The notes: generated by a model not told the origin, from the sequence alone. A stretch of 64,000 nt of DNA from Staphylococcus sp. CAG:324 (GCA_000433035.1 FR890814.1:5443-69442), one strand, 5' to 3'. Counted from the first letter of the stretch, positions 13,167 to 46,706 are shown. Numbers and translations: made by a program.

Positions 13167-13251
13167 ATAAAATTTAACACATTTTGTCGAAAACGTTTTC
13201 TGATAATTTTTCTTTACTTTTTTTTTTTAATATATTATAATATTAGAGTAA

Positions 13252-13320
13252 AAGTCATATATTTCTGATAATATGGTTCAGAAGTCTCTACATTATCACC
13301 GTAAATGATAATACTATGGT
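13252..13320 (+). ncRNA. Purine riboswitch of the guanine class (C at the discriminator position).
   Basis: UCAUAUA...UCUGA-UAAUAUGGU-UCAGA...AGUCUCUACA...UUAUCA-CCGUAAA-UGAUAA...UAC-UAUGG matches the P1/P2/P3 layout of the xpt G-box. An upstream TATAAT lies at 13236-13241. Confidence 0.6.
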
Positions 13321-13394
13321 AACAATTGAATAATTGCTTAAAAACCGCTGTTATGGCTTTTTACAACAAAAAATTTTTAAGGAGGACTTCTTTA

Positions 13395-14912
13395 ATGGAA
13401 GACAAAAAACAAAAAAATGTTGGGAAGCTCGACAGCTTTTTTGGCGTTTCTAAAGCAGGCTCAACAATTAAAGTAGAAGTGTTAGCTGGTGTTGCAACAT
13501 TTCTTGCGATGGCTTACATCTTAACTGTTAATCCTAATTCTATGTTATGGGGTGGTACAGCAGATGTACGTTGGTCGTCAGTATTTATTGCTACTGCTCT
13601 TGGTGCTGTAATTGGTACTTTATTAATGGCCCTACTTGCTAAAATGCCTCTTGCTCAAGCATCTGGTATGGGATTAAATTCAATGGTTGGTTCTATTCTT
13701 GGTGGAGCATTTGGATTTACCTTCTCATTTGGTAACGCTATGTTACTAATTTTAATTAGTGGTATTATCTTCTTACTTCTTTCTGTAATACCAGCTGGAC
13801 GTGATAAAGAAACCAAAAAATTAATTACTTTAAGAGAATTGATTTTTATTGGTATGCCAAAACCTGTTCGTACCGCAATACCTGTTGGTATTGGTTTATT
13901 TATTGCCTTCATTGGTTTACAAAATTCTCATCTTGTTCAAAATAATGATTTTACTCTTTTACAATTTGTTGATTTTACGCAAGCAGGAGCATGGGCAAAA
14001 GGTGGCGATGCTAGAGCAGCAGTAGTAGCACTTTTTAGTTTTGTTGTCATTGCTGTTCTTTCACATTTTAAAGTCAAAGGTGCCGTTGTTTTTGGTATTC
14101 TTGCCGCAACTTTACTTGCATGGCCATTAGGAGTTACTAATATTGATTATCTTCTTGGTAAAACGGATGGCGTAACTTGGAAATTCTGGGAAAATTTTGC
14201 TAATTTCTTTTCATTTGATCCAAATAATGGTGGTATCTTCGGTGCTGCTTTTACAGAAGGTTTTAACTTTCCAAAAGATTCTTTGATGACATGTGTAATG
14301 TTAATTATTACTTTTGCAATGATTGATATGTTTGATACAATGGGTACAGTTGTTGGATGCTGTGCTAATGCTAATTTATTAGACGAAAATGGTGTTCCAA
14401 AAAATTATGATAAAATCATGCTATCAGATTCAGTTGCTACATGTACTGGTGCAATCTTAGGTACTTCAACGGTTACAACTTTTGTTGAATCTGGTGCTGG
14501 TGTTGCAGCAGGTGGAAAAACAGGTTTAACTGCTTTAGTTACTGCTATCTTATTCTTATTATCAATTTTCTTATTACCAGTATTTGCTTTTATTCCAAGT
14601 GCAGCAGCAGCAGGTGCTTTATTATATGTTGGTGTATTAATGATGTCTAATGTTAAAAATATTGATTTCTCATCACCTAAATCTGCCGTTCCTGCTTTTG
14701 TTACAATTGCAATGATGCCTTTTGCCTATTCAATTACTGATGGTATTGGTCTTGGTCTTATAACTTATGTTATTATTTCAATATTTACTTTCTTTATAGA
14801 TTTGATTAAATATGCTTGTCATAAAGGTGAAAAACCTAAATGGGATATTTCAGTTGTAGCTATTATAGTAACTGCGTTATTCTTAGTATATTTCTTAGTT
14901 CCAACTGTTTAA
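13395..14912 (+). CDS. pbuG: Guanine/hypoxanthine permease (NCS2/AzgA-PbuG family).
   Basis: VSKAGSTIKVEVLAGVATFLAMAYILTVNP is the AzgA/PbuG N-terminal signature. RBS GGAGG lies 9 nt upstream of the ATG at 13395. Confidence 0.75.
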   Translation: MEDKKQKNVGKLDSFFGVSKAGSTIKVEVLAGVATFLAMAYILTVNPNSMLWGGTADVRWSSVFIATALGAVIGTLLMALLAKMPLAQASGMGLNSMVGSILGGAFGFTFSFGNAMLLILISGIIFLLLSVIPAGRDKETKKLITLRELIFIGMPKPVRTAIPVGIGLFIAFIGLQNSHLVQNNDFTLLQFVDFTQAGAWAKGGDARAAVVALFSFVVIAVLSHFKVKGAVVFGILAATLLAWPLGVTNIDYLLGKTDGVTWKFWENFANFFSFDPNNGGIFGAAFTEGFNFPKDSLMTCVMLIITFAMIDMFDTMGTVVGCCANANLLDENGVPKNYDKIMLSDSVATCTGAILGTSTVTTFVESGAGVAAGGKTGLTALVTAILFLLSIFLLPVFAFIPSAAAAGALLYVGVLMMSNVKNIDFSSPKSAVPAFVTIAMMPFAYSITDGIGLGLITYVIISIFTFFIDLIKYACHKGEKPKWDISVVAIIVTALFLVYFLVPTV

Positions 14913-34646: not shown

Positions 34647-34910
34647 TTAATCCTCTTTTGCATCAAACTCTATTTCCAGACTTTGCTTTTGGCGAATAGC
34701 TGCCGCATGAGCTATCGTTCTAATTGCGCTTGCAACCCGACCCTTTTTCCCTATAACTCTTCCCAAATCATCTTGATGAACTAAAGCTTTCACTAAAACT
34801 TTTTCTCCTTCTACAAAACTAGTTGTACACACTTCATCAGGATGAGTTACAAGGGGCTTGATTAATTGGGCAACTAAGCTTTCATAATTCAATTCAGCCA
34901 TTCTTATCAC
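34647..34910 (-). CDS. KH-domain RNA-binding protein (YlqC-like).
   Basis: GRVIGKKGRVASAIRTI is a KH GxxG loop. It sits in the conserved position downstream of rpsP. Confidence 0.75.
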   Translation of the reverse strand: MIRMAELNYESLVAQLIKPLVTHPDEVCTTSFVEGEKVLVKALVHQDDLGRVIGKKGRVASAIRTIAHAAAIRQKQSLEIEFDAKED

Positions 34911-35183
34911 CTATTCAGCTTTGGCTTTTTCTTCTAAGAATTTAACAATTAATCCTTCTTTTGTAAGTAGTGATTTAACAGTATCCGTTGGTTTTGCACC
35001 TGCCTTTAACCATTTCATTACTTTTTCAGTATCGAATTTGATAGTAGCAGGATTAGTTAGTGGATTGTATGTTCCTACAACCTCAATATAACGCCCATCA
35101 CGAGGATTGCGAGAATCGGTTGCTACAATACGATAAAAAGGATTCTTTTTTGATCCATATCTTTGAGATCTTAATCTTACCAT
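34911..35183 (-). CDS. rpsP: 30S ribosomal protein S16.
   Basis: [34 protein letters not shown]. The start was moved to the ATG after AGGAGG. Confidence 0.9.
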
Positions 35184-35214
35184 AAATTTGTACCTCCTAT
35201 ATTTAATACAAAAG

Positions 35215-35264
35215 TAGTATAACATATTTTAAAGCAAGTGTCAAGTATTTTAACTTGACACTTG
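35215..35264 (-). promoter_or_regulatory. rpsP promoter TTGACA-18-TATACT. The -35 element lies inside one arm of a 12-bp perfect inverted repeat (CAAGTGTCAAGT / ACTTGACACTTG), which also serves as the terminator of the upstream gene.
   Basis: Read directly from the sequence. Confidence 0.45.
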
Positions 35265-35501
35265 TTAACTATTGAAATATTTAATCATACCATTAATAAA
35301 ATCAATTTGTTTTTTTAAATTTGCAATTTTATCACTTGATGTCATCTTTAAATTGGTTTTCACTTCTTTTTCAAAATCATTTATCGTTAAAGGGTCTTGA
35401 TTCAAATAAATATACCATTTAGGATTATATCTCAAATAATTGGTATAAATTTCACTTGAATAAATTTTATCCAAAACACTTTTTACCATTAATCCCACCA
35501 A
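35265..35501 (-). CDS. Hypothetical protein of 78 aa.
   Basis: Intact ORF. Its start overlaps the upstream gene's end by 13 nt. Confidence 0.35.
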   Translation of the reverse strand: MVGLMVKSVLDKIYSSEIYTNYLRYNPKWYIYLNQDPLTINDFEKEVKTNLKMTSSDKIANLKKQIDFINGMIKYFNS

Positions 35502-35857
35502 CTATTGTAATTATTATTATAAATTCCTGTTGGTTTACCTCCAAAACTTTGCGTAATCTGTAGTACTTTTTGAATCGTATTTAATGTTTTACTGATTGAA
35601 TCTGGATCAATCTTTTTTACATAATTAATTACGTTTTTAATGCTTGTTTGGGATAATAAATCTTCAATCGTATTGGCATTCGTTTTTGTTGTTTTATTTG
35701 CAACTGTTTGGTACTTCTGCCACATTGGATCCCCTTCGCCTAAAATTACCCAATTTTCATATACTTTTTGCCACGTATATGTACCATTTAAAACATCATC
35801 TTTGACGCCCGGATATCTTGCAACAAAATCTCTGAATTCATCCATTCTGCTTGCCAT
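35489..35857 (-). CDS. Hypothetical protein of 122 aa.
   Basis: Intact ORF. Confidence 0.35.
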   Translation of the reverse strand: MASRMDEFRDFVARYPGVKDDVLNGTYTWQKVYENWVILGEGDPMWQKYQTVANKTTKTNANTIEDLLSQTSIKNVINYVKKIDPDSISKTLNTIQKVLQITQSFGGKPTGIYNNNYNSWWD

Positions 35858-35949
35858 TTTAAATTCCTCCCTACTTTAATTTATTAATATGATAAATTTT
35901 TTGTGACAAAAGTTTGAAAAAAACATAGAATACAAGTGAAAGGAGAAAT

Positions 35950-36207
35950 ATGATGTTTCAATTTTTAAAAAAGAGCGGACAAAGAAATAATAACTATACT
36001 CCATCTTATCCTAGTCCCTACCAAAGTCAGCCATATCAACAGCCTAACTATATGCAACCAAATACCAATCAATATGATTTAAATATGATTCATACAGAAA
36101 TCAATGAACTCAAAAGAGAAATTAATGATTTATATCAACGCATAAATCGACTTGAAAGCTTTTTAGGAGTACGAGATAATAATCAACCTAATTCAAATTT
36201 TTCATAA
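35950..36207 (+). CDS. Q/N/P/Y-rich small protein with a C-terminal coiled coil. It could be a spore-coat-like low-complexity protein.
   Basis: YPSPYQSQPYQQPNYMQPNTNQ followed by INELKREINDLYQRINRLESF. Confidence 0.35.
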   Translation: MMFQFLKKSGQRNNNYTPSYPSPYQSQPYQQPNYMQPNTNQYDLNMIHTEINELKREINDLYQRINRLESFLGVRDNNQPNSNFS

Positions 36208-36499
36208 GATGATAAATTGATATTCCCGTTTTATCATAAAAATTTTTATTGTATCGTTTTTCTAATGCTATACTATTCACTGTCATTCGATATTCTATGT
36301 AGGACGTTTTTAGTGTCTCAAAACTAATTTTATGCTTTACATACTTTTCTACATTATTATAAAAATTAATAATTTTAATCATTTCTTCTGTTGTAAACAT
36401 ATCATAGTCGATATTATAACTATCATTATTTTCTTTTACATTATCCACAATGTTATTAGCGTTTACTTTTATATGTTTTCTACTTTTCATATTCTTCAC
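36188..36499 (-). CDS. Hypothetical protein of 103 aa.
   Basis: Intact ORF. It converges on the preceding gene. Confidence 0.3.
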   Translation of the reverse strand: MKNMKSRKHIKVNANNIVDNVKENNDSYNIDYDMFTTEEMIKIINFYNNVEKYVKHKISFETLKTSYIEYRMTVNSIALEKRYNKNFYDKTGISIYHLMKNLN

Positions 36500-36610
36500 C
36501 CCATTTATTATAACACAAAAATTGCCATTTAGGCAAAAGAATTAACACTACAAAAATTTATGCATACTATAAAGTAGAAACGAGACTGTTTCAAAAAAAG
36601 GAGGGAAACT

Positions 36611-36753
36611 ATGTATCAACCTAACTATGGTTATAATTGTTGCGCACAAACTAATCCTTGTTGTGGCACAGGCAACACATTTGGTGGTTATGGCTACGCT
36701 TTAATCCTTGTGTTATTCATTTTATTAGTAATTATTGGTACTGCACGTTGGTA
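36611..36753 (+). CDS. YjcZ-family small sporulation protein of 47 aa.
   Basis: MYQPNYGYNCCAQTNPCCGTGNTFGGYGYALILVLFILLVIIGTARW. The GYALILVLFILLVIIG hydrophobic tail is typical of YjcZ. The gene has a strong RBS AAGGAGG. It is missing from the ORF track because it is under 60 aa. Confidence 0.6.
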
Positions 36754-36801
36754 ATTTAAACCAAACTCTCAAAAAGGTTCTAGGAGGAACCTTTTTTGAT
36801 T
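36720..36801. repeat. Left copy of an 82-bp direct repeat, comprising the last 34 nt of the yjcZ-like CDS plus its bidirectional terminator (AAAAAGGTTC-taggag-GAACCTTTTT).
   Basis: It matches 45378-45459 at 81 of 82 positions. Confidence 0.8.
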
Positions 36802-38537
36802 TATATTTTATCACTAATCTTTTTTAACATATTGTTAAAAGTAGAATTTTTTCGTTCTCTTAATTGTTTTATAGTTCCATACTCAATAATTTTACCATCA
36901 TTCATTACAATTACTTTGTCACAATTTAAAATATTATAAATACGATGAGAAGTAATCAACATTATTTTATCATTCATTTTATATAATTTACTTAATATAT
37001 CTTTTTCATTTGTTACATCTAGTGCTGAGGTGATTTCATCTAATAAAAATAATTTAGCATTTTTGTATATTGCATTTGCAATATTAATACGTTGAATTTC
37101 ACCACCTGATAAATTATCCTCATAATTTGAAATTTTTGTTTTATCTTTTTCTGGCAAACTTTCAATTAAATTATTTAATTTAGCCTCTTCTATACTTTTT
37201 TGATAATTTTTTTCATCAAATTCAAGTGGATAAATAATATTATCCCTTATACTAACATTAAATAATTTTAAATCTTGTTGTACATATGCAATATTATTTC
37301 TCAAAGAAAATAAACTAATTTTATTTAAATCTATATTATTAATAAGAATTTGTCCTTCATTAGGAATTATGATTCTAGTTATTAAATCAAAAAGTGTTGT
37401 TTTCCCTCCTCCAGACATTCCTACTATACCTAATTTTTCTCCTTTTTCAACTTTAAAATTTAATTTTTTTACTTCGAACAATCCATCACCATATTTAAAA
37501 CTTACATCAATAAATTCAATACTATAGATATCGTCTATATTAATACCATCATATATATTTGTTTCTGGTTCTATGCTATAAATTTCATCCAGCTTTTCCA
37601 TAGAATTTTTTATAATTTTTGAAGAAATATTTACATTTAATAGCACTCTAAAAGAGCTATAAATTTTAGGTATTATTGTTAAAAAAGATATTAATATACC
37701 AGTTGTTATAGTACTAAAATCTTTTATAATATACCATATTCCAATAAAAATTATTACAATATACATTATATTTATTATTAAATCTCCCATTATAAATCTA
37801 TTTAAGCTATGAGTAATTGAAGTCTTTTTTTTATGCTTATAAAGGCTATCAAGCCATAAATTAAATTTTTCATTTTCCTTTTGGTGGCCATTTGTTATTT
37901 TAATTTTTTTTATTCTTTTGCATGAAGTCAAAATTAATTCTTGACCACTTTCTAAAATCTCAATATATTCTTTATCATTTTTTTTACTAATCTTGGAAAT
38001 AAATTTAGCTAAAAAATAAAATAGAGGAAATAAAGCAAAAATAATTATTGCAAATTTTTTATCAATTTTAATCATTGTTATAACAACAATTAATAAAAAT
38101 ATACTTTCAGAAAAAAAGCCAACAATATCATTTACAAAATAAACTTCTCCAATCTTCCCTGTTTCTCTAGTTATTCTTGACATAACCTGAGAATCACTAT
38201 ATTTATTTATTTTTAAATATTTTGCATTTAATACACACTCAAAAGCAGTCCTTCTCAATGATGAAGTAATATAATTACCAAGCTTAGTTGATAAAAATGT
38301 TTTAAAAATATCTAATAATAATAACGATAATGATATACTAATCATTTTAATTATTATTATTATTAACAAATTTACATCTTTATTAGGAACTACTTTATCT
38401 ATGATATCTACTATTATTAATGAATTCTTTAATTTTAAATAGGAAATTGCTATCATTAAAATTATTAATATTATTATTATAAATATTTGTTTTTTTGTAC
38501 AATTTACAAGTATTTTATGTGTATTAATTGTTTTCAT
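36801..38537 (-). CDS. ABC transporter with fused permease and ATPase domains (lasso peptide D-type exporter; RiPP export and immunity).
   Basis: N-terminal 6-TM domain. Walker A GMSGGGKTT, signature LSGGE and Walker B LLDEITSALD. Its stop codon abuts the direct repeat. Confidence 0.75.
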   Translation of the reverse strand: MKTINTHKILVNCTKKQIFIIIILIILMIAISYLKLKNSLIIVDIIDKVVPNKDVNLLIIIIIKMISISLSLLLLDIFKTFLSTKLGNYITSSLRRTAFECVLNAKYLKINKYSDSQVMSRITRETGKIGEVYFVNDIVGFFSESIFLLIVVITMIKIDKKFAIIIFALFPLFYFLAKFISKISKKNDKEYIEILESGQELILTSCKRIKKIKITNGHQKENEKFNLWLDSLYKHKKKTSITHSLNRFIMGDLIINIMYIVIIFIGIWYIIKDFSTITTGILISFLTIIPKIYSSFRVLLNVNISSKIIKNSMEKLDEIYSIEPETNIYDGINIDDIYSIEFIDVSFKYGDGLFEVKKLNFKVEKGEKLGIVGMSGGGKTTLFDLITRIIIPNEGQILINNIDLNKISLFSLRNNIAYVQQDLKLFNVSIRDNIIYPLEFDEKNYQKSIEEAKLNNLIESLPEKDKTKISNYEDNLSGGEIQRINIANAIYKNAKLFLLDEITSALDVTNEKDILSKLYKMNDKIMLITSHRIYNILNCDKVIVMNDGKIIEYGTIKQLRERKNSTFNNMLKKISDKI

Positions 38538-39852
38538 TTGTATACCTCTTGTTAAAAATAGTATATTTTAGATTATAATCTATATCATTTTTTTTATAAT
38601 TTATATTTAAATTACTATTATTTAATTTCTCTATCATATAAAACTTTAATATTTTAAAAACAAGTTGGCACCAATTATAATTAAAATCATTAGTATTATC
38701 ATATATTGCTTTACAACCACCTCCACAATGATAAAATGCAAAACATTTATTACAATTTTTTAATTTATCATTATTATTTTTTACTATATTATTAACATTA
38801 TTATTATCTATTTCTATAGTTTTATTTATCTCCCCTATTTTATATAAATTATTTTTTGAATTTTTATCAAATTGAATGCAAGATGTTAAAAATCCATTTG
38901 GATGACAATATATTGTATTTAACGAAGTTCCTTTACAATATCCATTTAATCTCAATTCTTCACCTATAAAAGATTTAGCTCTTTCTTTTAGTACTTTTCT
39001 AGCATCTTTATATATATTTAAATATTCATCATTACTAATAGTATTTATAAAATTATTTCCATCAATAGTAGGAACATATCTTGTAAACTGAACTGATGAT
39101 AATTTTGGAACATTATTTAAAAAAAATTTAGCAATTTTTTCACCAAATCCAATTGATTTATTGGTTAATACTGTATTAAAACTAACTTTGCAATTATTTT
39201 CAGAAATGTATCTAGCATTTTTAATTACTATCATTGTAATGTCCTTACCAGATATACTCTGCCTAGTAAAACCATTTATTTCTGAAGGTCCATCAATTGA
39301 AAAACATACTTCATTAAAATTTTCACTTAACCATTTAGCTTGATTTATACTAAAAAAACCATTTGTTATTATTCTTTTCAAACAAAGAGTATTATTTTCT
39401 TTGCATTTTTTTATTGCATATTGAATAAATCTTTTTAATAATGAAAAATTATATGTTGGCTCACCACCGCCATGAAAAGTTAAGTCAATCCATGGAGTTT
39501 TTTTATTAATAATTTTAGCATTATTTATTAATATATTTACTATTTTTTTATATTTATTAAAACTTAGAAAACTATTATTACAATTAGTGCCAGAAGATGA
39601 ATAACAATATTTACACTTTAACATACATTTGTTACTTATAATTATTGTAGCAGAATTCCCATAATATTTATTCCCTATTATCAATCTAGTTTTGCTATTA
39701 AATTTATTAATTGTTCTACAACCTAAATACTTAAAAACTATATTATTTATATCTTCTATATCCAAATCATTTGCTTCTATTACTAAATCATATTTTGGAA
39801 CATAATAAAATTTTTCCAATTTAAATACATTTAACACATTTTTTTCCTCCAT
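38524..39852 (-). CDS. Radical SAM enzyme with a C-terminal SPASM domain (RiPP maturase).
   Basis: CMLKCKYC is a Cx3Cx2C motif. The C-terminal Cys cluster is CKGTSLNTIYCHPNGFLTSC...CNKCFAFYHCGGGCKAIY. The ~70-aa N-terminal extension may be an RRE. Confidence 0.75.
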   Translation of the reverse strand: MEEKNVLNVFKLEKFYYVPKYDLVIEANDLDIEDINNIVFKYLGCRTINKFNSKTRLIIGNKYYGNSATIIISNKCMLKCKYCYSSSGTNCNNSFLSFNKYKKIVNILINNAKIINKKTPWIDLTFHGGGEPTYNFSLLKRFIQYAIKKCKENNTLCLKRIITNGFFSINQAKWLSENFNEVCFSIDGPSEINGFTRQSISGKDITMIVIKNARYISENNCKVSFNTVLTNKSIGFGEKIAKFFLNNVPKLSSVQFTRYVPTIDGNNFINTISNDEYLNIYKDARKVLKERAKSFIGEELRLNGYCKGTSLNTIYCHPNGFLTSCIQFDKNSKNNLYKIGEINKTIEIDNNNVNNIVKNNNDKLKNCNKCFAFYHCGGGCKAIYDNTNDFNYNWCQLVFKILKFYMIEKLNNSNLNINYKKNDIDYNLKYTIFNKRYTNENN

Positions 39853-39865
39853 TTAAAACTATAAG

Positions 39866-39884
39866 GGAGGATTAATACCTCCCA
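39866..39884 (-). promoter_or_regulatory. GC-rich intercistronic stem-loop GGGAGG-uauuaau-CCUCCC between the precursor and rSAM genes.
   Basis: 6-bp G/C stem in otherwise ~20 % GC DNA. Only a weak U-tract follows, suggesting a partial terminator or processing/stability element of the kind common after RiPP precursor genes. Confidence 0.4.
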
Positions 39885-39902
39885 CTTTGATAAACGTATT
39901 AA

Positions 39903-40016
39903 TTAAGCACATTTATCATAACCATAACCATCATCATTATCTTTTCCAGTTGAACCAGTTAATTCAAACATATCACCTAAAATAATATATGATGGCTTTT
40001 CATAATTATTATTCAT
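39903..40016 (-). CDS. Lasso peptide precursor of 37 aa: MNNNYEKPSYIILGDMFELTG | STGKDNDDGYGYDKCA.
   Basis: RBS AAAGGAGGTG lies 7 nt upstream. The leader matches YxxPxLx3Gx5Tx (Y5, P8, G14, T20; only L is replaced by Y), with the penultimate leader residue Thr. The core begins with Ser, has Asp at positions 7 and 8 for isopeptide formation, and has bulky Tyr in the tail. This is the only sizeable intergenic gap in the operon. Confidence 0.6.
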   Translation of the reverse strand: MNNNYEKPSYIILGDMFELTGSTGKDNDDGYGYDKCA

Positions 40017-40031
40017 TATTGACACCTCCTT

Positions 40032-41468
40032 TCAGACTTTTAATACGGGAAACCTTGATATTTCAATAAATTGCTTTTTTATTATATTAGAATCAGTAAT
40101 AACTATTTCATCTATTTCTACCCATGAATGAAATTCGAATAAATTAGTAATATGATACGAAGATTTACCAATTACGACTTGAGATGGAATTCCAATAGTA
40201 ATTAGTGCTGTACACAAAGATATTGATCTTTCTAAGCATAGCATACCTTCATTATTTTCTTTACCAATCTTACGTAAAATCGGAATAATTTTACTAACAT
40301 AATTACAAAAATCAATACTAGAATAGTTTAAAGTGTTTTGTTCAATTAAATATTTATTTTTATGAAACAAAGTATTTATTAGTTTTATAGCATAAGAAAC
40401 CCCTTTTTTATGAATTAATGAAATAGATTTTATATAATTTCTAGTCATATGTTCAAAATCCGTAGAATTTATTTCAAAAGAATTTTTGACCAATTCTTCG
40501 TTATACAAAAGAGTCATTAATTTATCATAACAAAATGTTTCATTTATATCCATATATAATTGGTTAACATTACATACATTTGGATAATTAACTATATATT
40601 TATCAACATTATTAGCTAAATTAATTAACAAATTTATTTTCTTGTTTAAAAATGGACTCAATATATTTGTTTGATAATTTAAAATATTTTTTATAAAATT
40701 ATAATTATTCAATAATTCTATTTGATATATATTATTTTTTTTAGTTCCTAAAATTATAACTTTACTTAATTTTATAGTATTTTGATATTGTATATTTTGG
40801 AAATAATATTTTTTACTTTTTGTTAATAAAACACTATCAAAATCTATTGGTTGCTTATCTAAACTTTTTTTTATTCCAATACCAACATTAATTCCTTGAC
40901 AATTCAATTGTTTATCTATTATACAAAAAACATCATCACTCAAAATTTCATAATTATATTTATTATTTAATTCTATAGATATTGATGTCTTACCATACCC
41001 AGACTTTCCCAACAACGCTACTCCTTCATTTGTTGTTTTATTAACCAATAATGCTCCATGAAAAATTATTTTGTTATTTTCTAAAAACGCAATGGATAAT
41101 GGATCTAAAAAATACTGAAAAAACATATTTCTTTTATTATATATTTTTTTTATATAGAAAATAAACTTTTTTTTCAAAAATAACCATTTTGCATAACTTC
41201 CATCTTTATAAAAAATATTATATTCTTGATTGTTTTTATCATAAATAAAACTACCAATTAATAATTCATATTTAATTCCTTTCTTATGAATTTTGGGTAT
41301 ATAATTATTATCAAAATTATATTCAAATATGTAACTTTCCTTATTTGCTATATGATTATTTTTACAATTTGAACCTAAAATATTGAATATAAAATTTGTA
41401 TTTTCTAAATCATTCGTTTTTATTTCAAAATTTTCACCAAATACATTAAATTTTAGTATATCATTCAT
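40032..41468 (-). CDS. Fusion protein with an N-terminal HPr-kinase-like (HprK C-terminal domain) kinase and a C-terminal lasso B2 transglutaminase-like leader peptidase.
   Basis: The kinase part reads FHGALLV...GVALLGKSGYGKTSISIEL...ILSDDVFCI, which follows the HprK P-loop pattern HG.lv..G.G.L..G.SG.GKSE.aLEL....L..DD. The peptidase part reads EGMLCLERSISLCTALITIGIPSQVVIGKSS...FEFHSWVEIDEIVITD, giving a Cys-His-Asp triad as in McjB-type B2. Confidence 0.6.
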   Translation of the reverse strand: MNDILKFNVFGENFEIKTNDLENTNFIFNILGSNCKNNHIANKESYIFEYNFDNNYIPKIHKKGIKYELLIGSFIYDKNNQEYNIFYKDGSYAKWLFLKKKFIFYIKKIYNKRNMFFQYFLDPLSIAFLENNKIIFHGALLVNKTTNEGVALLGKSGYGKTSISIELNNKYNYEILSDDVFCIIDKQLNCQGINVGIGIKKSLDKQPIDFDSVLLTKSKKYYFQNIQYQNTIKLSKVIILGTKKNNIYQIELLNNYNFIKNILNYQTNILSPFLNKKINLLINLANNVDKYIVNYPNVCNVNQLYMDINETFCYDKLMTLLYNEELVKNSFEINSTDFEHMTRNYIKSISLIHKKGVSYAIKLINTLFHKNKYLIEQNTLNYSSIDFCNYVSKIIPILRKIGKENNEGMLCLERSISLCTALITIGIPSQVVIGKSSYHITNLFEFHSWVEIDEIVITDSNIIKKQFIEISRFPVLKV

Positions 41469-41721
41469 TTATCAATATTCCAATACTTATCATACTATTA
41501 ACAAATTCGTTGTAATCTTTTTCAATTATACTTGTATCTATATTATATTTTTCTTTCATAAATTGAATAATTTCAAACGAAGTTTTTCCCTTTTTTATTA
41601 AATCTAAAATACAATAACTTGTATAATTTATAGAAATAAATTGTCCATTATTTAAATTAGTAATAATTGCTTCTTCATCTATTAAAGTAATATCAACATT
41701 TTTAGATATATTTAATTTCAT
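41461..41721 (-). CDS. Lasso B1 protein (PqqD-like RiPP recognition element).
   Basis: At 86 aa it fits a PqqD-family fold (TSFEIIQFMKEKYNIDTSIIEKDYNEFVNSMISIGIL). It overlaps both neighbouring genes. Confidence 0.65.
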   Translation of the reverse strand: MKLNISKNVDITLIDEEAIITNLNNGQFISINYTSYCILDLIKKGKTSFEIIQFMKEKYNIDTSIIEKDYNEFVNSMISIGILINE

Positions 41722-43258
41722 AATTTTCCTCCATCTTTTTTAACCAATTAAAAACCAATATTGTATCTATTATTAAAAATTTATATTTTATTATTTCATT
41801 TTTATTATTTAATATTTTATCTATAACTTTAAAATCAAAGAAACAAGAAAAATTACTTTTCTTAATTTGATTTATTTTATAAATTATTTTATCAATTGAA
41901 TTAAATAATAATTTTTCACTTAAAACTCCATAACAACTTTTTGAATTTCTTGAAATTATAGAAAAAGGTATATTTTCTTTAAAAGCAAATTTTAAAATAG
42001 GTTTAGCAATGATTTTTCCACCATAAGGTAATGCTTTATAAATTTTAGGAATACTATTTGAGAAAGATATTAAATCTTTATCTATATATGGATTTATATC
42101 TATTACATTATATTTATTAGCTAAATATAATCTCATTGCTTCTCTTTGTAATAAAACCGCATATAGTCTTTGATTATTTGACTTAACATTTTCACATTTA
42201 ATAAATGTTTTTTTTCCTTCTATTTGTTCATTTATAACATATGGAACATCTATAAATTCTACAATTCCATTTAAATGATTTAAATACGATTTTTTAAAAA
42301 AACTACTAACATTTATAAATATTTTATCGTCATTAAATCTTTGTAAATATCCTCCAAAAATTCCATCACCATTTAATCCACTTAAAATATACTTTATATT
42401 TTTTTCTTTCATAAATTGGTAGGTTTTATCCCACCAATAAATACTTGTATGAATAAATGGATATATAATATTTTCATTTAATAATAAATATTCATCTATA
42501 TTATTAATTTTATCAGACATATCAATAAATATTAATTGAATATTATATCTTTTACAAAACTCTACTGCAAAATTACTTTCATCCACTTGATAATATTTAT
42601 TTGATGTCCAATGTATACAAATAAAGTCTTTCTTTAATAAATATAAACAATAAGCAATTACAATAGAATCTATTCCACCACTCATTGAAACACAAATTTT
42701 ACTATTTATTCCTTTTGTTCTTTTTTCTACTGACTTAATAACCAATTTTTTTGCTTCTTTTACGTAATCATTAAAAGTATATAAATTATATTTTATATCC
42801 TTTTCAATACAATTTTGATAAAGTATCTTTAATTTATTATTATCTATTGATACTAAAGTTCCATAATCTATTAATTTTATATTATTAAAAGGAAAAAAAT
42901 AATTTCTTTGTATAATTCCTAATATAGCTTGTTTATCAATTTCAATTATTTCTTTTTTTAAATATAAATTATAGTAATCATCTGTTACTAACAGCATATT
43001 ATTTATATTTTTATAATATAATATGACATTTGATGTATTGGATATATATATATAATCTAAACCTCTATAATTAAAAATTAAAATACAGTCTCCATCAATT
43101 TCTTGAAATTTAATACCATTATCTATAAATAAAAGAATTTTTTCAATAATATTTTTAATATCATCAAATATTCTTCCTAATACAATTATTTTGATTAAAT
43201 TATTATGAACTTTAATCTGATATTCTTCCTTATATGTTTTAGTAATTATAATTTTCAT
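41702..43258 (-). CDS. Lasso cyclase C (asparagine synthetase B-like, ATP-dependent macrolactam synthetase).
   Basis: PP-loop SMSGGIDS. Size and neighbourhood fit. Confidence 0.65.
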   Translation of the reverse strand: MKIIITKTYKEEYQIKVHNNLIKIIVLGRIFDDIKNIIEKILLFIDNGIKFQEIDGDCILIFNYRGLDYIYISNTSNVILYYKNINNMLLVTDDYYNLYLKKEIIEIDKQAILGIIQRNYFFPFNNIKLIDYGTLVSIDNNKLKILYQNCIEKDIKYNLYTFNDYVKEAKKLVIKSVEKRTKGINSKICVSMSGGIDSIVIAYCLYLLKKDFICIHWTSNKYYQVDESNFAVEFCKRYNIQLIFIDMSDKINNIDEYLLLNENIIYPFIHTSIYWWDKTYQFMKEKNIKYILSGLNGDGIFGGYLQRFNDDKIFINVSSFFKKSYLNHLNGIVEFIDVPYVINEQIEGKKTFIKCENVKSNNQRLYAVLLQREAMRLYLANKYNVIDINPYIDKDLISFSNSIPKIYKALPYGGKIIAKPILKFAFKENIPFSIISRNSKSCYGVLSEKLLFNSIDKIIYKINQIKKSNFSCFFDFKVIDKILNNKNEIIKYKFLIIDTILVFNWLKKMEENYEIKYI

Positions 43259-43274
43259 AATTAATACCTACATT

Positions 43275-44759
43275 TTATTTTATCAATAATGGTTTTCTAT
43301 AATATGGCTGTATACAAAAACATTTAAAAATAGAATTATTTTTTAATTTATACAAATACATATTAAATCCAATATTTCTATTTATATCTAAATAATGAGG
43401 AAATTTATTTAAATCAATTATTAAAGTTGTTTCTACTAATCCATTCTTAATTTTAACTATTTCATCAATATACCCATAATAAAATTCCTTTTCTTTTTCA
43501 TAATCATATAAAGAATTAAATGTTGGTGCATAAAATAAACTTTTTATTATATTATTATTTATCATACGTAAAGTTATAGGTATATATGGATCTATAAATT
43601 CACCAGTTTTTCTATATCCAAATATATTTAAATGAATTACCATATTTTCTTCCATTCTAGGTTTTATTTGTATATATAAAAGATTATCTTTTTTTATGTA
43701 TTTAAAATCAGTTATTATATTGTTGTAAAATACTAAATGATGAGGTAATACCTTATTTCTTTTTGTAAAATTAAAATAACCTAAATAATATTTTTCAAAA
43801 TATTTAATTAATTCTAAATTATTAAAAAATCTATCAAATATAGCCAAATTATCTAATAAATCATCATTATCTTTAATTTTATTTTTTAATAACTTTTTAC
43901 ATTTCAATAAAATAGTTTTATCATTAAAAATATAACTTAACTCTAAAAATATTTTGGATACCATTTTTAATGAAACATTATTATAACGTAAAATAAAAAT
44001 TATTTCATGATAGTCAAAATAAATAAAATATTTTTTTATGTACAAATATAAATCAATTGCATATTGTAAATTTATTTTTTTTTGATTTCTTAAAAACTCT
44101 ATATTTCTTGTAAACTCTAAATAATATATAATTAAACAACAAAATGTTTCATTTAAATTAAATGTTTTTACATTATTAGATAATATTTCTATTTGATTAA
44201 TTGTTTTTATTAGAGGTTTATACAAATGAAATTTTGTTTTTAATTCAATAGTAATAACTTGTTTTTTATATATTACTAATATCTTTTTTTCTCCACAAAT
44301 TTCAATTGTTTTATTCCTTATATCTTTAAATTTTTTAAATTTATTTCTAACTAAATCTACAAACTTTTCCTCTTCATCATTACTAATAATAATATCTATA
44401 TCATCAAACTGTCTTATATTATGTAAATCATATATTAATTTTTCTAAAATTATTCCTTTATAAAGGATATAATTTATATGGTTTTCTTCAAGTAGCTTTA
44501 TTAATTCAATAAATACTTCATTATATATATTTTTTTTTACTAATAAATATTTTTTTATACTATGAATTTTATTTGCAATATTTAAAAATTTTTTAATATT
44601 TAATAATTTAGAATAAAACCTTAAAAATATTTTTTGATTATATAATAATCTTAGCACTTCCTGACAATCAATGTCTGCAAAATAATCATTTTCTAGATTT
44701 TCATTCCTTATTAAACTTACTATAAATTTTTCTTCTTTTTTTATAATTTTTTCCTCCAT
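43275..44759 (-). CDS. Putative nucleotidyltransferase (NTP_transf_5-like) of the kind found in Firmicute kinase-associated lasso clusters.
   Basis: YKGIILEKLIYDLHNIRQFDDIDIIIS is a GS/hG...D.D-type nucleotidyltransferase motif. Confidence 0.45.
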   Translation of the reverse strand: MEEKIIKKEEKFIVSLIRNENLENDYFADIDCQEVLRLLYNQKIFLRFYSKLLNIKKFLNIANKIHSIKKYLLVKKNIYNEVFIELIKLLEENHINYILYKGIILEKLIYDLHNIRQFDDIDIIISNDEEEKFVDLVRNKFKKFKDIRNKTIEICGEKKILVIYKKQVITIELKTKFHLYKPLIKTINQIEILSNNVKTFNLNETFCCLIIYYLEFTRNIEFLRNQKKINLQYAIDLYLYIKKYFIYFDYHEIIFILRYNNVSLKMVSKIFLELSYIFNDKTILLKCKKLLKNKIKDNDDLLDNLAIFDRFFNNLELIKYFEKYYLGYFNFTKRNKVLPHHLVFYNNIITDFKYIKKDNLLYIQIKPRMEENMVIHLNIFGYRKTGEFIDPYIPITLRMINNNIIKSLFYAPTFNSLYDYEKEKEFYYGYIDEIVKIKNGLVETTLIIDLNKFPHYLDINRNIGFNMYLYKLKNNSIFKCFCIQPYYRKPLLIK

Positions 44760-44782
44760 TAAAATATTTTAAATATAAAATT

Positions 44783-45259
44783 TTATAATAAAAATTCACA
44801 TAATGTTTGATTATTATAATCCCCATAATAATAATCTATCAATTCTAAAGATTTTCCATTTATTTTAAATAACTCTAAATTAATATTTTTTTGTGAAATA
44901 TTTTTAAAAAATTCTATATCTTTTTTTACTATTTTTTGAATTTCTAATTGTTTTATATATGAATTTATAGTAAACTCACTTAAACTTTTAGACAAATTTA
45001 AACTTTCAATTTCATAACAATATTCCATTGAATCATAATTTATTGGCATACTATTGGTAACAAATATATTATTATTATCATTTCTAATTATTATTGGGTA
45101 ATTGCAATTATAATTATCTATAAAATTAATAAATAAAATATAATTAATAAAAGTGATTTGGTTATCAAAAAAGCAATTGATTATTAATTTTTCATTTTTT
45201 AAAATAATTTGTATTTTAATATCTCTTACTTTAGTATTAATAATTTTTTTAGATTCCAT
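44783..45259 (-). CDS. Hypothetical protein of 158 aa, the first gene of the island operon.
   Basis: Intact ORF with a GGAGG RBS. Confidence 0.35.
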   Translation of the reverse strand: MESKKIINTKVRDIKIQIILKNEKLIINCFFDNQITFINYILFINFIDNYNCNYPIIIRNDNNNIFVTNSMPINYDSMEYCYEIESLNLSKSLSEFTINSYIKQLEIQKIVKKDIEFFKNISQKNINLELFKINGKSLELIDYYYGDYNNQTLCEFLL

Positions 45260-45302
45260 AAATACTTAACCTCCATTATATATTTAAATAATTTTCGATT
45301 TT

Positions 45303-45345
45303 ATTATACATTTTTTTGTGTGTATATTTTGTCAATATTTGTAAA
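45303..45345 (-). promoter_or_regulatory. Island operon promoter with an extended -10 TGTATAAT and an upstream TTGACA at non-canonical spacing.
   Basis: Minus strand reads TTGACAAAATATACACACAAAAAAATGTATAATAAAATCG. Confidence 0.4.
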
Positions 45346-45377
45346 AAAAATTAAATAAATAATATTTATATATTATT

Positions 45378-45459
45378 TTTTATTAGTAATTATTGGTACT
45401 GCACGTTGGTAATTTAAACCAAACTCTCAAAAAGGTTCTAGAAGGAACCTTTTTTGATT
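45378..45459. repeat. Right copy of the 82-bp direct repeat. It is an orphan duplicate of the yjcZ 3' end plus terminator and carries one G-to-A difference in the terminator loop.
   Basis: It aligns to 36720-36801. Confidence 0.8.
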
Positions 45460-46127
45460 GAATAATCATTAATAAACTTGTTTTCATTCATTACTAAAAA
45501 AAATATTGATTATTTATAACTTATCAACCATAAAAGTACATCATAGAATACATGTAAATGATAAAAATTTCAAAACATATCAACATTACCAAATAGCCAA
45601 AAGATTGTTCAAGGCAGAAACTATTGAAATATTGAAAGAAGCAAATAAAGAACCATATAAAAATTATTCTCCCTCTTCAACCAGTCTAATTCTAATGCCT
45701 ATTGTTGGCAAAACTGCTCACTATTCTTTCTACCTCAAACAAATACATACATAAAAACTACAATCGGTCAAACTATTACTCAAATATTGACTAAAATGAA
45801 CAATAATGAATTGCTCTTCATCATCTAGTATCATTACAAGTATGGAATAAAAATAGACCTCTTCACAATTGATAAATTACATATGATTTTCTAATGGTTC
45901 TTTAGTAAAATTTAAAATAAATATTATTCTATTCTTCACAATACATGAAGCATTTCAATGTCATTATTTATAATAATACTAGTGCAACTACTATAGATGA
46001 TAAGATAGAATTAGAATACGATATGAAACATAAATTTGGTTAATCAAAAATTTTTTAAAAACTAAGTCTAATTTATTTCTTTTATTCTCTTTTTTTAGTA
46101 TAATAAATTCAAAGAGGTAACAAAATT

Positions 46128-46706
46128 ATGATTTTAATGAAAGATATTATTAAAGAAGGAAATCCTATCCTTCGTCAAAAATGCCTTGATGTAGAACTTC
46201 CTTTAAAAGAGGCCGATGAAAAAATAATTCAAACTATGATTGAGTATTTGATAAACTCTCAAGATGATGAACTTGCTAAAAAATACAATTTAAGACCTGG
46301 CGTAGGTCTTGCGGCACCCCAAATTGGAATAAATAAAAACATGTTGGTTATTTTAGCCTATGATGAAGATGGTAACTTTCATTTTTACCCAATGATTAAT
46401 CCAAAACTTTTAAGTTACTCTGAAGAAAAAACTTATTTAGAAGGTGGTGAAGGATGTCTTTCGGTTGATCGCGAGGTCAATGGATATGTGCATAGAGCTA
46501 AACGAGTCACTGTCGAAACAAATTTATATAATCACGGAAACCTTGTTCACACAAGGTTACGACTTAAAAACTATATCTCAGTTGTTTTTCAACATGAATA
46601 CGATCATTTAAACGGCATCTTATTTGTAGATCGTATTAATCACCAAAATCCTTTTGAAATTTTGCCTAATTCAACTGCAGTCAAATTTAAAAATGATGAT
46701 GAATAG
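46128..46706 (+). CDS. def: Peptide deformylase.
   Basis: GVGLAAPQIG, EGCLSV and QHEYDHLNG motifs. Confidence 0.85.
   Translation: MILMKDIIKEGNPILRQKCLDVELPLKEADEKIIQTMIEYLINSQDDELAKKYNLRPGVGLAAPQIGINKNMLVILAYDEDGNFHFYPMINPKLLSYSEEKTYLEGGEGCLSVDREVNGYVHRAKRVTVETNLYNHGNLVHTRLRLKNYISVVFQHEYDHLNGILFVDRINHQNPFEILPNSTAVKFKNDDE

What the first reader, a model, noticed from the sequence alone, without database searches (positions are those of the whole stretch)
36802..45377. Complete lasso-peptide gene cluster carrying an extra radical-SAM/SPASM maturase, a kinase-peptidase fusion and a nucleotidyltransferase: candidate new hybrid RiPP class
Eight co-directional, overlapping genes encode a canonical lasso set:
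- precursor A (39903-40016)
- PqqD-like B1
- TGase-like B2
- AsnB-like cyclase C with SGGIDS
- ABC exporter D

Three things are atypical for lasso clusters as far as I know. (1) A radical-SAM enzyme with a full SPASM domain sits immediately after the precursor. rSAM-SPASM enzymes are the thioether- and C-C-crosslinking maturases of sacti/ranthipeptides, QhpD and darobactin. (2) The B2 peptidase is fused to an HPr-kinase-like domain; in paeninodin-type clusters the kinase is a separate protein. (3) An NTP_transf_5 protein is present.

The core STGKDNDDGYGYDKCA is short and Asp-rich, with a single Cys two residues after an Asp and no C-terminal Ser (the known target of lasso kinases). This suggests a lasso macrolactam (Ser1 to Asp7 or Asp8) plus an rSAM-installed crosslink, for example a Cys-S to Asp-C-beta thioether as made by PapB/QhpD, possibly with a new phosphorylation site (Ser1 or Thr2 side chain).
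Basis: partly seen in the sequence, partly recalled or inferred. Interest (0 to 1): 0.92.

Follow-up and report, generated by a model that had tools for sequence, protein, structure and literature searches.

The report
Lasso peptide cluster with radical-SAM crosslinker
An 8.6-kb, strain-variable island in a human-gut bacterium encodes a complete lasso-peptide pathway plus a radical-SAM enzyme that most likely adds a sulfur crosslink to the peptide tail, a combination I could not find described for lasso peptides.

Summary
Eight intact minus-strand genes (45259-36801) encode orfX, an NTP_transf_5 protein, the lasso cyclase C, PqqD-type B1, an HPr-kinase-like/B2-protease fusion, a 37-aa precursor, a radical-SAM/SPASM enzyme and an ABC exporter.

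- **A family, not a one-off.** Nine distinct Cys-containing precursor variants from gut and other metagenomes all have the rSAM gene directly 3' of the precursor. All 19 distinct Cys-containing cores keep S1, an acidic residue at position 8 and D13-x-C15.
- **Link between the rSAM and the motif.** The one complete sister cluster type whose precursor lacks D13 and C15 keeps kinase, B1, B2, C, D and N but has no rSAM.
- **Enzyme type.** The rSAM is closest in sequence and predicted fold to the thioether-forming CteB and PapB, but scores far below their family cut-offs.
- **Most likely product.** A Ser1-Asp8 lasso with a Cys15 thioether, to Asp13 or Asp5, possibly also phosphorylated.
- **What is and is not unusual.** Kinase and nucleotidyltransferase genes are already known in Firmicutes lasso clusters. 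The kinase-B2 fusion appears unique.
- **Mobility.** The cluster is bracketed by 82-nt direct repeats and is absent ("empty site") in five human-gut contigs.

Verdict: a new variant of a known kind. The chemistry is untested.

The parts
45378..45459 (.). Left copy of the 82-nt direct repeat that bounds the island
   Evidence: near-identical to 36720-36801 (1 mismatch). Empty-site contigs join window 36801 to 45373.
44783..45259 (-). orfX, 158 aa, first gene of the operon, function unknown
   Evidence: No Pfam or NCBIfam hit. Present in L090, but no homologue in related loci.
43275..44759 (-). NTP_transf_5 nucleotidyltransferase-like protein (N), 494 aa, with an uncharacterised C-terminal half
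   Evidence: PF14907, 44.9 bits, residues 29-255. An NTP_transf_5 gene is present in 6 of the 7 related cluster types; in L099 and L100 the contig ends before any was seen.
41702..43258 (-). Lasso cyclase C (Asn-synthase-like, PP-loop SGGIDS)
   Evidence: PF00733 at 61.6 bits; weak hit to NF033535 lasso lactam cyclase. 24-31% identical to the C genes of related loci.
41461..41721 (-). B1, PqqD-type RiPP recognition element, 86 aa
   Evidence: PF05402 at 41 bits; weak hits to lasso PqqD models NF033530 and NF033536.
40032..41468 (-). Fusion of an HPr-kinase-like domain (about residues 1-310) with the B2 leader peptidase (about residues 320-478)
   Evidence: PF07475 and PF13471; invariant H137, GxSGxGK[ST] at 154-161, and D178-D179. 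B2 triad C411/H447/D459; homologues of the two halves are always separate proteins.
39903..40016 (-). Precursor A, 37 aa: leader MNNNYEKPSYIILGDMFELTG, core STGKDNDDGYGYDKCA
   Evidence: The leader has [YF]xxP at -17 to -14, Gly at -8 and Thr at -2. 21 homologous peptides were found.
39855..39883 (-). GC-rich stem-loop with a T-rich tail between the precursor and the rSAM gene (attenuator- or terminator-like)
   Evidence: GGGAGGTATTAATCCTCCC followed by TTATAGTTTT.
38524..39852 (-). Radical-SAM/SPASM peptide maturase (likely start GTG 39837, 437 aa)
   Evidence: CxxxCxxC at 76/80/83 plus seven invariant SPASM Cys; the closest solved structure is CteB. It lies directly 3' of the precursor in nine Cys-containing variants.
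36801..38537 (-). ABC exporter D (transmembrane domain plus nucleotide-binding domain, 578 aa)
   Evidence: PF00664 and PF00005. 30-41% identical to the D genes of related loci.
36720..36801 (.). Right copy of the 82-nt direct repeat. It comprises the 3' end and terminator of a YjcZ_2 small gene.

Best explanation
This is a functional, horizontally acquired gene cassette for a tailored class-II-type lasso peptide. 'Shown' below means shown by sequence.

**Shown**
- The set is complete: a precursor with a lasso leader, B1, B2, C and D.
- An HPr-kinase-like domain keeps the catalytic residues of its family.
- There is an NTP_transf_5 protein.
- There is a radical-SAM enzyme with a full seven-Cys SPASM domain.

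**Inferred pathway**
1. B1 binds the [YF]xxP...G...TG leader.
2. While the leader is still attached, the rSAM abstracts a hydrogen from an acceptor residue and joins it to the thiol of Cys15. This gives a thioether (-2 Da). The preferred partner is the beta-carbon of Asp13, which would make a small D-x-C ring acting as a covalent stopper below the lasso ring. The alternative partner is Asp5, in the ring, which would make a ring-to-tail lock.
3. B2 cleaves after Thr-Gly.
4. C joins the Ser1 amine to the Asp8 side chain, giving an 8-residue ring with an 8-residue tail.
5. The kinase domain phosphorylates a hydroxyl. Ser1 is the only universally conserved one. The nucleotidyltransferase may then decorate that phosphate, as in pseudomycoidin.
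6. D exports the product.

The fusion of kinase and B2 arose by loss of the stop codon between two genes that are adjacent in all relatives.
For: **Lasso machinery and leader motif.**

**Family conservation.** The order K-B2-A-rSAM recurs in seven related cluster types (loci L002/3, L006, L008, L096/7, L098, L099, L100), with C and B1 upstream or downstream. L090 is identical to the window.

**Precursor family.**
- 19 distinct Cys-containing cores have invariant S1, G3, D5, N6, G9, D13 and C15.
- Position 8 is always D or E, whereas position 7 is G in P0155. This points to a Ser1-Asp8 ring.

**Natural experiment.** Precursor P0160 (core SNGKNNDDGYGWSVLA) lacks D5, D13 and C15. It sits in complete A-B1-K-B2-C-D-N clusters without any rSAM (L091, L092; no tblastn hit).

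**rSAM affinities.**
- Best NCBIfam hits are thioether formers: PapB, the SCIFF maturase, the nif11 rSAM, CefB and QhpD.
- The best solved-structure match by sequence is CteB, E 6e-53.
- The AF2 model (pTM 0.81) matches CteB best by fold.
- PapB makes Cys-Asp thioethers and tolerates altered spacing (PMC12715619).

**Kinase domain.** The His, P-loop and Asp-Asp residues are invariant across 19 homologues.

**Evidence that the genes are under selection.**
- All genes are intact.
- The K-B2 protein is found unchanged on 788 contigs.
- A natural D8E precursor variant keeps the acidic residue (P0156).
Against: - No chemical data exist.
- The rSAM scores far below the curated cut-offs of every named family (PapB 81 against 340; SCIFF 79 against 425). 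Its chemistry cannot be transferred by homology.
- In PapB, QhpD and CteB the Cys lies N-terminal to the acceptor. Here every Asp is N-terminal to the Cys, and Asp13 is only two residues away.
- The rSAM-less contrast rests on one related clade: three precursors and one complete cluster type. It may count as a single evolutionary event, and D5, D13 and C15 change together, so the acceptor is not resolved.
- The rSAM N-terminus models as only three strands and one helix. That is shorter than a canonical recognition element, so the timing and leader dependence are uncertain.
- The kinase has no C-terminal Ser to act on. Its target, and that of the nucleotidyltransferase, are guesses.
Confidence: 0.62

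Rival explanations
1. The rSAM acts on the lasso precursor but does different chemistry. Candidates:
- Oxidation of Cys15 to formylglycine, as the anaerobic sulfatase maturase does.
- A sactionine (S to C-alpha) link to a non-Asp residue.
- An aromatic C-C or C-O crosslink at position 10 or 12.
- Epimerisation.
For: - anSME is the second-best sequence and fold match.
- Many cores end in C-[AGS]-R, faintly reminiscent of the sulfatase C-x-P/A-x-R motif.
- Cyclophane-forming SPASM families also appear among the weak NCBIfam hits.
- The enzyme passes no family cut-off, so function is open.
- An aromatic residue at position 10 is nearly always present.
Against: - The aromatic at position 10 and the variable residue at position 12 are retained in the rSAM-less clade, so they do not track the enzyme.
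- Position 12 varies (Y/W/T/C/V), and position 10 is Leu in P0148.
- The window peptide ends in C-A with no Arg.
- The top-scoring families and the top structure are thioether formers.
- D13 is lost together with C15, which fits a two-residue crosslink motif better than a single-residue oxidation.
Confidence: 0.22
2. The rSAM is not part of the lasso pathway. It is a housekeeping or unrelated SPASM enzyme that happens to lie in the operon.
For: It is generically similar to anSME and to many SPASM enzymes. No close homologue was found among the GTDB representative genomes.
Against: - It lies inside the island, which is absent from other strains of the same species.
- It overlaps the ABC gene by 14 nt.
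- Its only close relatives (23-46% identity) are all directly 3' of homologous lasso precursors in nine Cys-containing variants.
- It is absent exactly where the Cys is absent.
- No sulfatase gene is adjacent.
Confidence: 0.03
3. The cassette is decaying or silent. The kinase-B2 fusion is a degenerative stop-codon loss, and no mature peptide is made in this host.
For: - The fusion is unique to this lineage.
- The island's GC content is 18-20%, against 28% in the host, so it is foreign DNA.
- The island is dispensable.
- No regulator is visible inside it.
Against: - All eight ORFs are intact.
- Catalytic residues of both fused domains are preserved.
- An identical fusion protein occurs on 788 contigs.
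- Fusions of B2 to other lasso enzymes (nucleotidyltransferase, ABC transporter) are known to occur in presumably functional clusters (PMC8498205, PMC7533575).
Confidence: 0.08

Closest known systems
Paeninodin- and pseudomycoidin-type Firmicutes lasso clusters (PadeK kinase, PsmN nucleotidyltransferase)
   Same: Split B1/B2, cyclase C and ABC exporter D, plus an HPr-kinase-like gene and an NTP_transf_5 gene. The leader has YxxP and Thr at -2 (PMC8498205, PMC7533575).
   Different: - There is an extra rSAM/SPASM gene.
- The precursor has no C-terminal Ser, which is the known kinase target.
- The kinase is fused to B2.
- The core is short (16 aa), Asp-rich and has one Cys.
Thioether-forming rSAM/SPASM maturases: CteB (SCIFF), PapB (ranthipeptides), QhpD
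   Same: CxxxCxxC plus a seven-Cys SPASM domain. These are the best HMM, sequence-to-PDB and fold matches. The substrate carries an invariant Cys next to acidic residues. PapB links Cys to Asp (PMC12715619).
   Different: - Scores are 4-5 fold below the equivalog cut-offs.
- The N-terminal recognition domain is truncated.
- The enzyme is embedded in a lasso cluster.
- Acceptor candidates lie N-terminal to the Cys, with i/i+2 or i/i+10 spacing, instead of Cx3D.
Disulfide-bridged lasso peptides (classes I, III, IV) and P450 biaryl-linked lasso peptides (PMC10664482)
   Same: A second covalent link on top of the isopeptide ring that would rigidify or lock the threaded fold.
   Different: Most cores have a single Cys, so a disulfide is impossible. 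The extra link would be made by a radical-SAM enzyme. No such enzyme is reported for lasso peptides in the reviews checked (PMC9266682, PMC13352647).
Chaxapeptin- and sungsanpin-type short lasso peptides (own knowledge)
   Same: 15-16 residues, an 8-residue ring closed on Asp8 and a 7-8-residue tail. This shows that such a short lasso is feasible.
   Different: Those start with Gly, are hydrophobic, come from Actinobacteria and carry no tailoring.
SynChlorMet cassette (ScmC HPr-kinase-like, PqqD-like, two rSAM/SPASM proteins; own knowledge plus the PF27840 label)
   Same: An HPr-kinase-like protein, a PqqD-type protein and a SPASM rSAM occur together around a small peptide. The stand-alone kinase homologues in relatives hit PF27840 (ScmC) weakly.
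   Different: That cassette has no lasso cyclase or B2 protease. Here the kinase-like gene persists in the rSAM-less sister clusters, so it is not an rSAM partner.

Membership tests
Lasso peptide biosynthetic gene cluster | Asn-synthetase-like macrolactam synthetase (C) with a PP-loop ATP site | tested here: met
   PF00733 at 61.6 bits, with SGGIDS at residues 192-197. The NCBIfam lasso cyclase model NF033535 hits only weakly (40 bits against a cut-off of 525).
Lasso peptide biosynthetic gene cluster | Transglutaminase-like Cys protease (B2) with a Cys-His-Asp triad | tested here: met
   PF13471 at 31.2 bits, above its cut-off of 26. C411, H447 and D459 align with invariant columns in 13 B2 homologues. 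NF033537 scores 27.2 bits, just below its cut-off of 33.
Lasso peptide biosynthetic gene cluster | PqqD-like recognition element (B1) and a leader with YxxP and a penultimate Thr | tested here: met
   PF05402 at 41 bits. The leader has YEKP at -17 to -14, Gly at -8 and Thr at -2, conserved in all 24 family members.
Lasso peptide biosynthetic gene cluster | Core with a small first residue and Asp or Glu at position 7-9 | tested here: met
   Ser1 is invariant. Position 8 is Asp in 21 and Glu in 1 of the 22 distinct cores.
Lasso peptide biosynthetic gene cluster | Threaded lariat topology of the product | not testable with these tools
   This needs an isolated peptide, analysed by NMR, ion mobility, or carboxypeptidase and heat assays.
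PapB-family ranthipeptide maturase / SCIFF maturase (CteB) | Radical-SAM CxxxCxxC motif plus a SPASM domain with seven Cys | tested here: met
   C76/C80/C83 and C306, C325, C367, C370, C376, C380 and C395 are invariant in 9-10 homologues. TIGR04085 scores 30.4 bits, above its cut-off of 27.
PapB-family ranthipeptide maturase / SCIFF maturase (CteB) | Score above the curated equivalog cut-off | tested here: not met
   NF047865 PapB: 81.3 bits against 340. TIGR03974 SCIFF: 78.6 bits against 425. The enzyme is therefore a separate clade. It 'works like' these families at most.
PapB-family ranthipeptide maturase / SCIFF maturase (CteB) | Full N-terminal RiPP recognition element | tested here: inconclusive
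   The AF2 model shows only three strands and one helix in residues 10-42. The family profile A1 (positions 53-413) aligns to CteB residues 85-446.
PapB-family ranthipeptide maturase / SCIFF maturase (CteB) | Formation of a Cys thioether on the substrate peptide | not testable with these tools
   Only indirect evidence: D13-x-C15 co-occurs with the rSAM gene.
Paeninodin-type lasso peptide kinase | HPr-kinase-like fold with the P-loop and catalytic His and Asp-Asp | tested here: met
   PF07475 is weak (E 1.2e-3). However, H137, G154-x-S156-G157-x-G159-K160-[ST]161 and D178-D179 are invariant or nearly so in 19 homologues.
Paeninodin-type lasso peptide kinase | Substrate precursor ends in Ser, the phosphorylation site | tested here: not met
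   The cores end in CA, C[AGS]R, VLA or PMP. No core in the family has a C-terminal Ser.
Pseudomycoidin PsmN-type nucleotidyltransferase | NTP_transf_5 domain encoded inside a lasso cluster | tested here: met
   PF14907 at 44.9 bits, above its cut-off of 31.2. It is conserved in relatives, including the rSAM-less ones. Homology to PsmN itself was not tested.
Anaerobic sulfatase-maturating enzyme | Equivalog score and a sulfatase substrate or conserved chromosomal synteny | tested here: not met
   TIGR03942 scores 46.5 bits against a cut-off of 349. The gene lies in a strain-variable island, next to a lasso precursor in all relatives.

The most novel reading that the evidence does not exclude
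This would be the first family of lasso peptides whose threaded fold is fixed by a radical-SAM-installed thioether from the single tail Cys to an Asp beta-carbon. The link would form either a tiny D-x-C 'stopper' ring or a ring-to-tail staple. The peptide would also be phosphorylated at a site other than the C-terminal Ser (Ser1). If so, it is a new structural subclass of lasso peptide, made by human-gut Bacillota from a mobile cassette.
Probability: 0.4. Interest if true: 0.82.

Novelty: new variant of a known kind. Interest (0 to 1): 0.7.

Why it matters
Known lasso-peptide tailoring reactions include phosphorylation, glycosylation, methylation, acetylation, citrullination, hydroxylation, epimerisation, aspartimide formation and P450 biaryl coupling. 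Neither a review of lasso tailoring from 2022 nor a broad review of interlocked peptides from 2026 mentions a radical-SAM step.

A radical-SAM thioether on a lasso scaffold would matter in four ways:
- It would add a new way of covalently locking a mechanically interlocked peptide.
- It would give a compact (16-residue), protease- and heat-proof scaffold for engineering.
- It would extend the substrate logic of thioether-forming SPASM enzymes: the acceptor lies N-terminal to the Cys, and leader recognition may be shared with the lasso B1 protein.
- The cassette is a presence/absence polymorphism in a common human-gut bacterium. Its product may therefore contribute to strain-level competition or signalling in the gut.

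Tried and rejected
- **Genome scan.** A scan of 185,579 species-representative genomes with the rSAM profile returned only distant SPASM enzymes (30% identity or less). Neither the host genome nor close relatives appeared.
- **Word-indexed search with the K-B2 fusion.** It found only itself, because the sequence is AT-rich and low in complexity. The exhaustive search was needed.
- **Solved structures.** Searches with the fusion protein and with the NTP_transf_5 protein gave nothing.
- **orfX.** No family hit and no homologue in related loci. Its role is left open.
- **Extra Cys316 in the rSAM.** I considered whether it argues for an anSME-like, fully ligated auxiliary cluster. It is not conserved in the L098 and L099 homologues, so it is not informative.
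- **Asp7 as ring acceptor.** I considered it. It is disfavoured because P0155 has Gly7 and Asp8, and P0156 has Asp7 and Glu8.
- **Promoter scan.** Uninformative in this AT-rich DNA: 133 found against 122 expected.
- **Literature.** Ten full-text searches found no description of an rSAM-tailored lasso peptide. Tietz et al. 2017 (the RODEO paper) could not be opened, so an earlier bioinformatic mention of such co-occurrence cannot be excluded.
- **Host taxonomy.** It was not resolved beyond the NCBI MAG label 'Staphylococcus sp. CAG:324'.

Full report
**1. What is in the sequence**

Between 45259 and 36801 the minus strand carries eight intact, tightly packed ORFs. Pfam and NCBIfam assign them as follows:

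| Gene | Size | Assignment |
|---|---|---|
| orfX | 158 aa | no family |
| N | 494 aa | NTP_transf_5, PF14907, 44.9 bits |
| C | 518 aa | Asn-synthase-like cyclase, PF00733, SGGIDS motif |
| B1 | 86 aa | PqqD protein |
| K-B2 | 478 aa | residues 134-265 weakly match the HPr-kinase C-terminal domain; residues 410-467 match Transglut_core3 |
| A | 37 aa | precursor |
| rSAM | 442 aa | Radical_SAM plus the SPASM model TIGR04085 above its cut-off |
| D | 578 aa | ABC exporter |

- The precursor most likely starts at the ATG at 40016, 8 nt after an AGGAGG.
- A GGGAGG/CCTCCC stem-loop with a T-rich tail separates the precursor from the rSAM gene. This suggests a high precursor-to-enzyme transcript ratio.
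The only corrections are the strand, the unassigned first gene, and the likely GTG start of the rSAM (437 aa, identical to P0001).

**2. The enzymes look active**

- **rSAM.** It has CxxxCxxC (C76/C80/C83) and the seven canonical SPASM cysteines (C306, C325, C367, C370, C376, C380, C395). All are invariant in its homologues.
- **Kinase-like half of the fusion.** Its family keeps an invariant His137, a GxSGxGK[ST] P-loop (154-161) and Asp178-Asp179 in 19 sequences. From my own knowledge, these correspond to the catalytic set of HPr kinase/phosphorylase.
- **B2 half.** It keeps Cys411, His447 and Asp459.

**3. It is a family**

The rSAM has very few relatives in 5.8 billion proteins: six at 33-100% identity, all from metagenomes.

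- **Gene neighbourhoods** show the same arrangement in seven further cluster types. The order is a stand-alone kinase-like gene (about 310 aa), B2 (about 160 aa), A, then the rSAM, followed in all but L008 by an ABC exporter gene; in L008 a Methyltransf_21 gene follows instead. C and B1 lie upstream or downstream. An NTP_transf_5 gene is present in all except L099 and L100, where the contigs end before one was seen.
- **Precursor profile search.** A profile of the precursors retrieved 21 more peptides.
- **Conserved core.** The 19 distinct Cys-containing cores read S-x-G-x-D-N-D-[DE]-G-[WYFL]-[GA]-x-D-x-C-[AGS]-(R). All leaders carry [YF]xxP at -17 to -14, Gly at -8 and ELTG at -4 to -1. This is the known lasso leader signature.
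- **Ring acceptor.** Position 8 is always acidic, whereas position 7 is Gly in P0155. The ring is therefore most likely Ser1-Asp8: 8 residues, leaving an 8-residue tail.

**4. The link between the rSAM and the Cys**

- Three family members (P0160-P0162) end in ...GYGWSVLA or ...GYGYSPMP. They lack Asp13 and Cys15, and have Asn instead of Asp5.
- P0160 lies in two complete clusters (L091, L092) with the order A-B1-K-B2-C-D-N and no rSAM gene. tblastn with the window rSAM finds nothing there.
- Conversely, all nine Cys-containing variants whose context could be read have the rSAM immediately after the precursor.
- The aromatic residue at position 10 and the kinase and nucleotidyltransferase genes are kept in both groups, so they do not track the rSAM.
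- This is the main argument that the rSAM works on the D-x-C end of the peptide.
- It is a limited argument, because the rSAM-less group is one related clade.

**5. What chemistry**

- The best NCBIfam hits are PapB, the SCIFF maturase, the nif11 rSAM, CefB and QhpD, all acting on Cys-rich peptides. Their scores are four- to five-fold below the curated cut-offs.
- A profile of the family hits CteB (5wgg) at E 6e-53 among solved structures, then anSME.
- An AlphaFold2 model (pTM 0.81) is closest in fold to CteB, then anSME, ChlB and TigE.
- PapB joins Cys sulfur to Asp in Cxxx(D/E) motifs and tolerates other spacings (PMC12715619).
- I therefore favour a Cys15 thioether to Asp13, or to Asp5. 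The first would create a small ring acting as a permanent stopper in the tail. The second would staple the tail to the ring.
- The N-terminus of the enzyme models as only three strands and one helix. It may rely on the cluster's B1 protein for leader binding, or act late.
- Rival chemistries cannot be excluded: formylglycine formation, sactionine, an aromatic crosslink.

**6. Kinase, nucleotidyltransferase and the fusion**

- HPr-kinase-like and NTP_transf_5 genes are established accessories of Firmicutes lasso clusters. Paeninodin is phosphorylated on its C-terminal Ser. Pseudomycoidin is phosphorylated and then glycosylated by PsmN (PMC8498205, PMC7533575). They are not novel here.
- What differs is that no member of this family ends in Ser. 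Ser1 is the only universally conserved hydroxyl, so the site is unknown.
- The fusion is unusual. An exhaustive search of 1.84 billion representative proteins found homologues of the N-terminal half only as proteins of about 300-330 aa. Homologues of the C-terminal half were mostly about 160-aa B2 proteins. None covered both halves.
- In relatives the two genes are adjacent and a few bases apart, in L098 in the same frame. Loss of a stop codon explains the fusion.
- The fused protein is found unchanged on 788 contigs and is named in NCBI as from 'Staphylococcus sp. CAG:324', a human-gut MAG.

**7. A mobile cassette**

- The cluster has 18-20% GC, against about 28% in the flanks.
- It is bracketed by an 82-nt direct repeat (36720-36801 and 45378-45459, one mismatch). 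The repeat consists of the 3' end and terminator of a YjcZ_2 small gene.
- I built a pattern for the predicted empty site. It is absent from the window but matches five human-gut metagenome contigs.
- Those contigs are 96-99.8% identical to the window's flanks and join position 36801 directly to 45373.
- The cluster is therefore an 8.6-kb presence/absence polymorphism. That also rules out a housekeeping role for the rSAM.
- A metagenome contig of 8,636 bp (L090) consists of exactly the island.

**8. Novelty**

- Ten full-text searches found no rSAM-tailored lasso peptide.
- A 2022 review of unusual lasso modifications mentions radical SAM enzymes only for non-lasso epimerases (PMC9266682).
- A 2026 review of interlocked peptides, with 112 mentions of lasso peptides, does not contain the word 'radical' (PMC13352647).
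- The RODEO paper could not be read, so an earlier passing note of co-occurrence is possible.
- I rate this a new variant of a known kind: a lasso peptide family with a dedicated SPASM maturase. It is not a new RiPP class.

**9. Verdict**

It overstated the unusualness of the kinase and nucleotidyltransferase genes and the 'new class' label. Interest is 0.7. My confidence that the rSAM crosslinks the Cys-bearing tail of a genuine lasso peptide is about 0.6. The exact bond and the phosphorylation site need experiment.

Noticed in passing
window 36720-36801 and 45378-45459; loci L101-L105: 82-nt direct repeats bracket the cluster. They consist of the 3' end plus terminator of a YjcZ_2 small gene. 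Five human-gut metagenome contigs carry the empty site, joining 36801 to 45373. No integrase or recombinase gene was identified among the island's eight ORFs (orfX has no family hit), so the insertion mechanism is unexplained.
   Followed up: yes
window 36000-46000: The island's GC content is 18-20%, against about 28% in the surrounding chromosome. This is consistent with foreign origin.
   Followed up: partly
window 13235-13336 (+): Purine riboswitch aptamer (RF00167, 76.8 bits), immediately 5' of and slightly overlapping the listed start of a 528-aa ORF (13326-14912).
   Followed up: no
L096 1952-4167; L098 2579-3987 and 11414-12898; L008 5865-7001: Related rSAM-lasso clusters carry further genes next to the NTP_transf_5 gene. 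These are carrier-protein (PP-binding) genes, an AMP-binding adenylating enzyme, or a Methyltransf_21 gene in place of the ABC exporter. They hint at additional, perhaps acyl, decorations in the family.
   Followed up: no
L001 10001-11083: The closest rSAM homologue (46% identity) is N-terminally truncated. It sits beside integrase and ART-PolyVal genes with no lasso genes upstream, so it is apparently a remnant cut by a mobile element.
   Followed up: partly
L093 2352-2465: An orphan copy of the Cys-less precursor P0160 lies away from any lasso enzymes. Nearby are PadR, ABC and Peptidase_C39_2 genes.
   Followed up: no
window 43275-44000 (C-terminal half of the NTP_transf_5 protein) and 44783-45259 (orfX): About 240 residues after the NTP_transf_5 domain, and the whole of orfX, have no detectable family. 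orfX is unique to this island and could be an immunity or regulatory protein.
   Followed up: partly
window 34647-36499 and 46128-46706: The flanks are Bacilli-type core genes: ribosomal protein S16 and a KH-domain protein by inspection of the translations only, and YlbE, YlbD, UPF0223 and peptide deformylase by Pfam. At 28% GC, the NCBI label 'Staphylococcus sp.' for this MAG is probably only approximate.
   Followed up: partly
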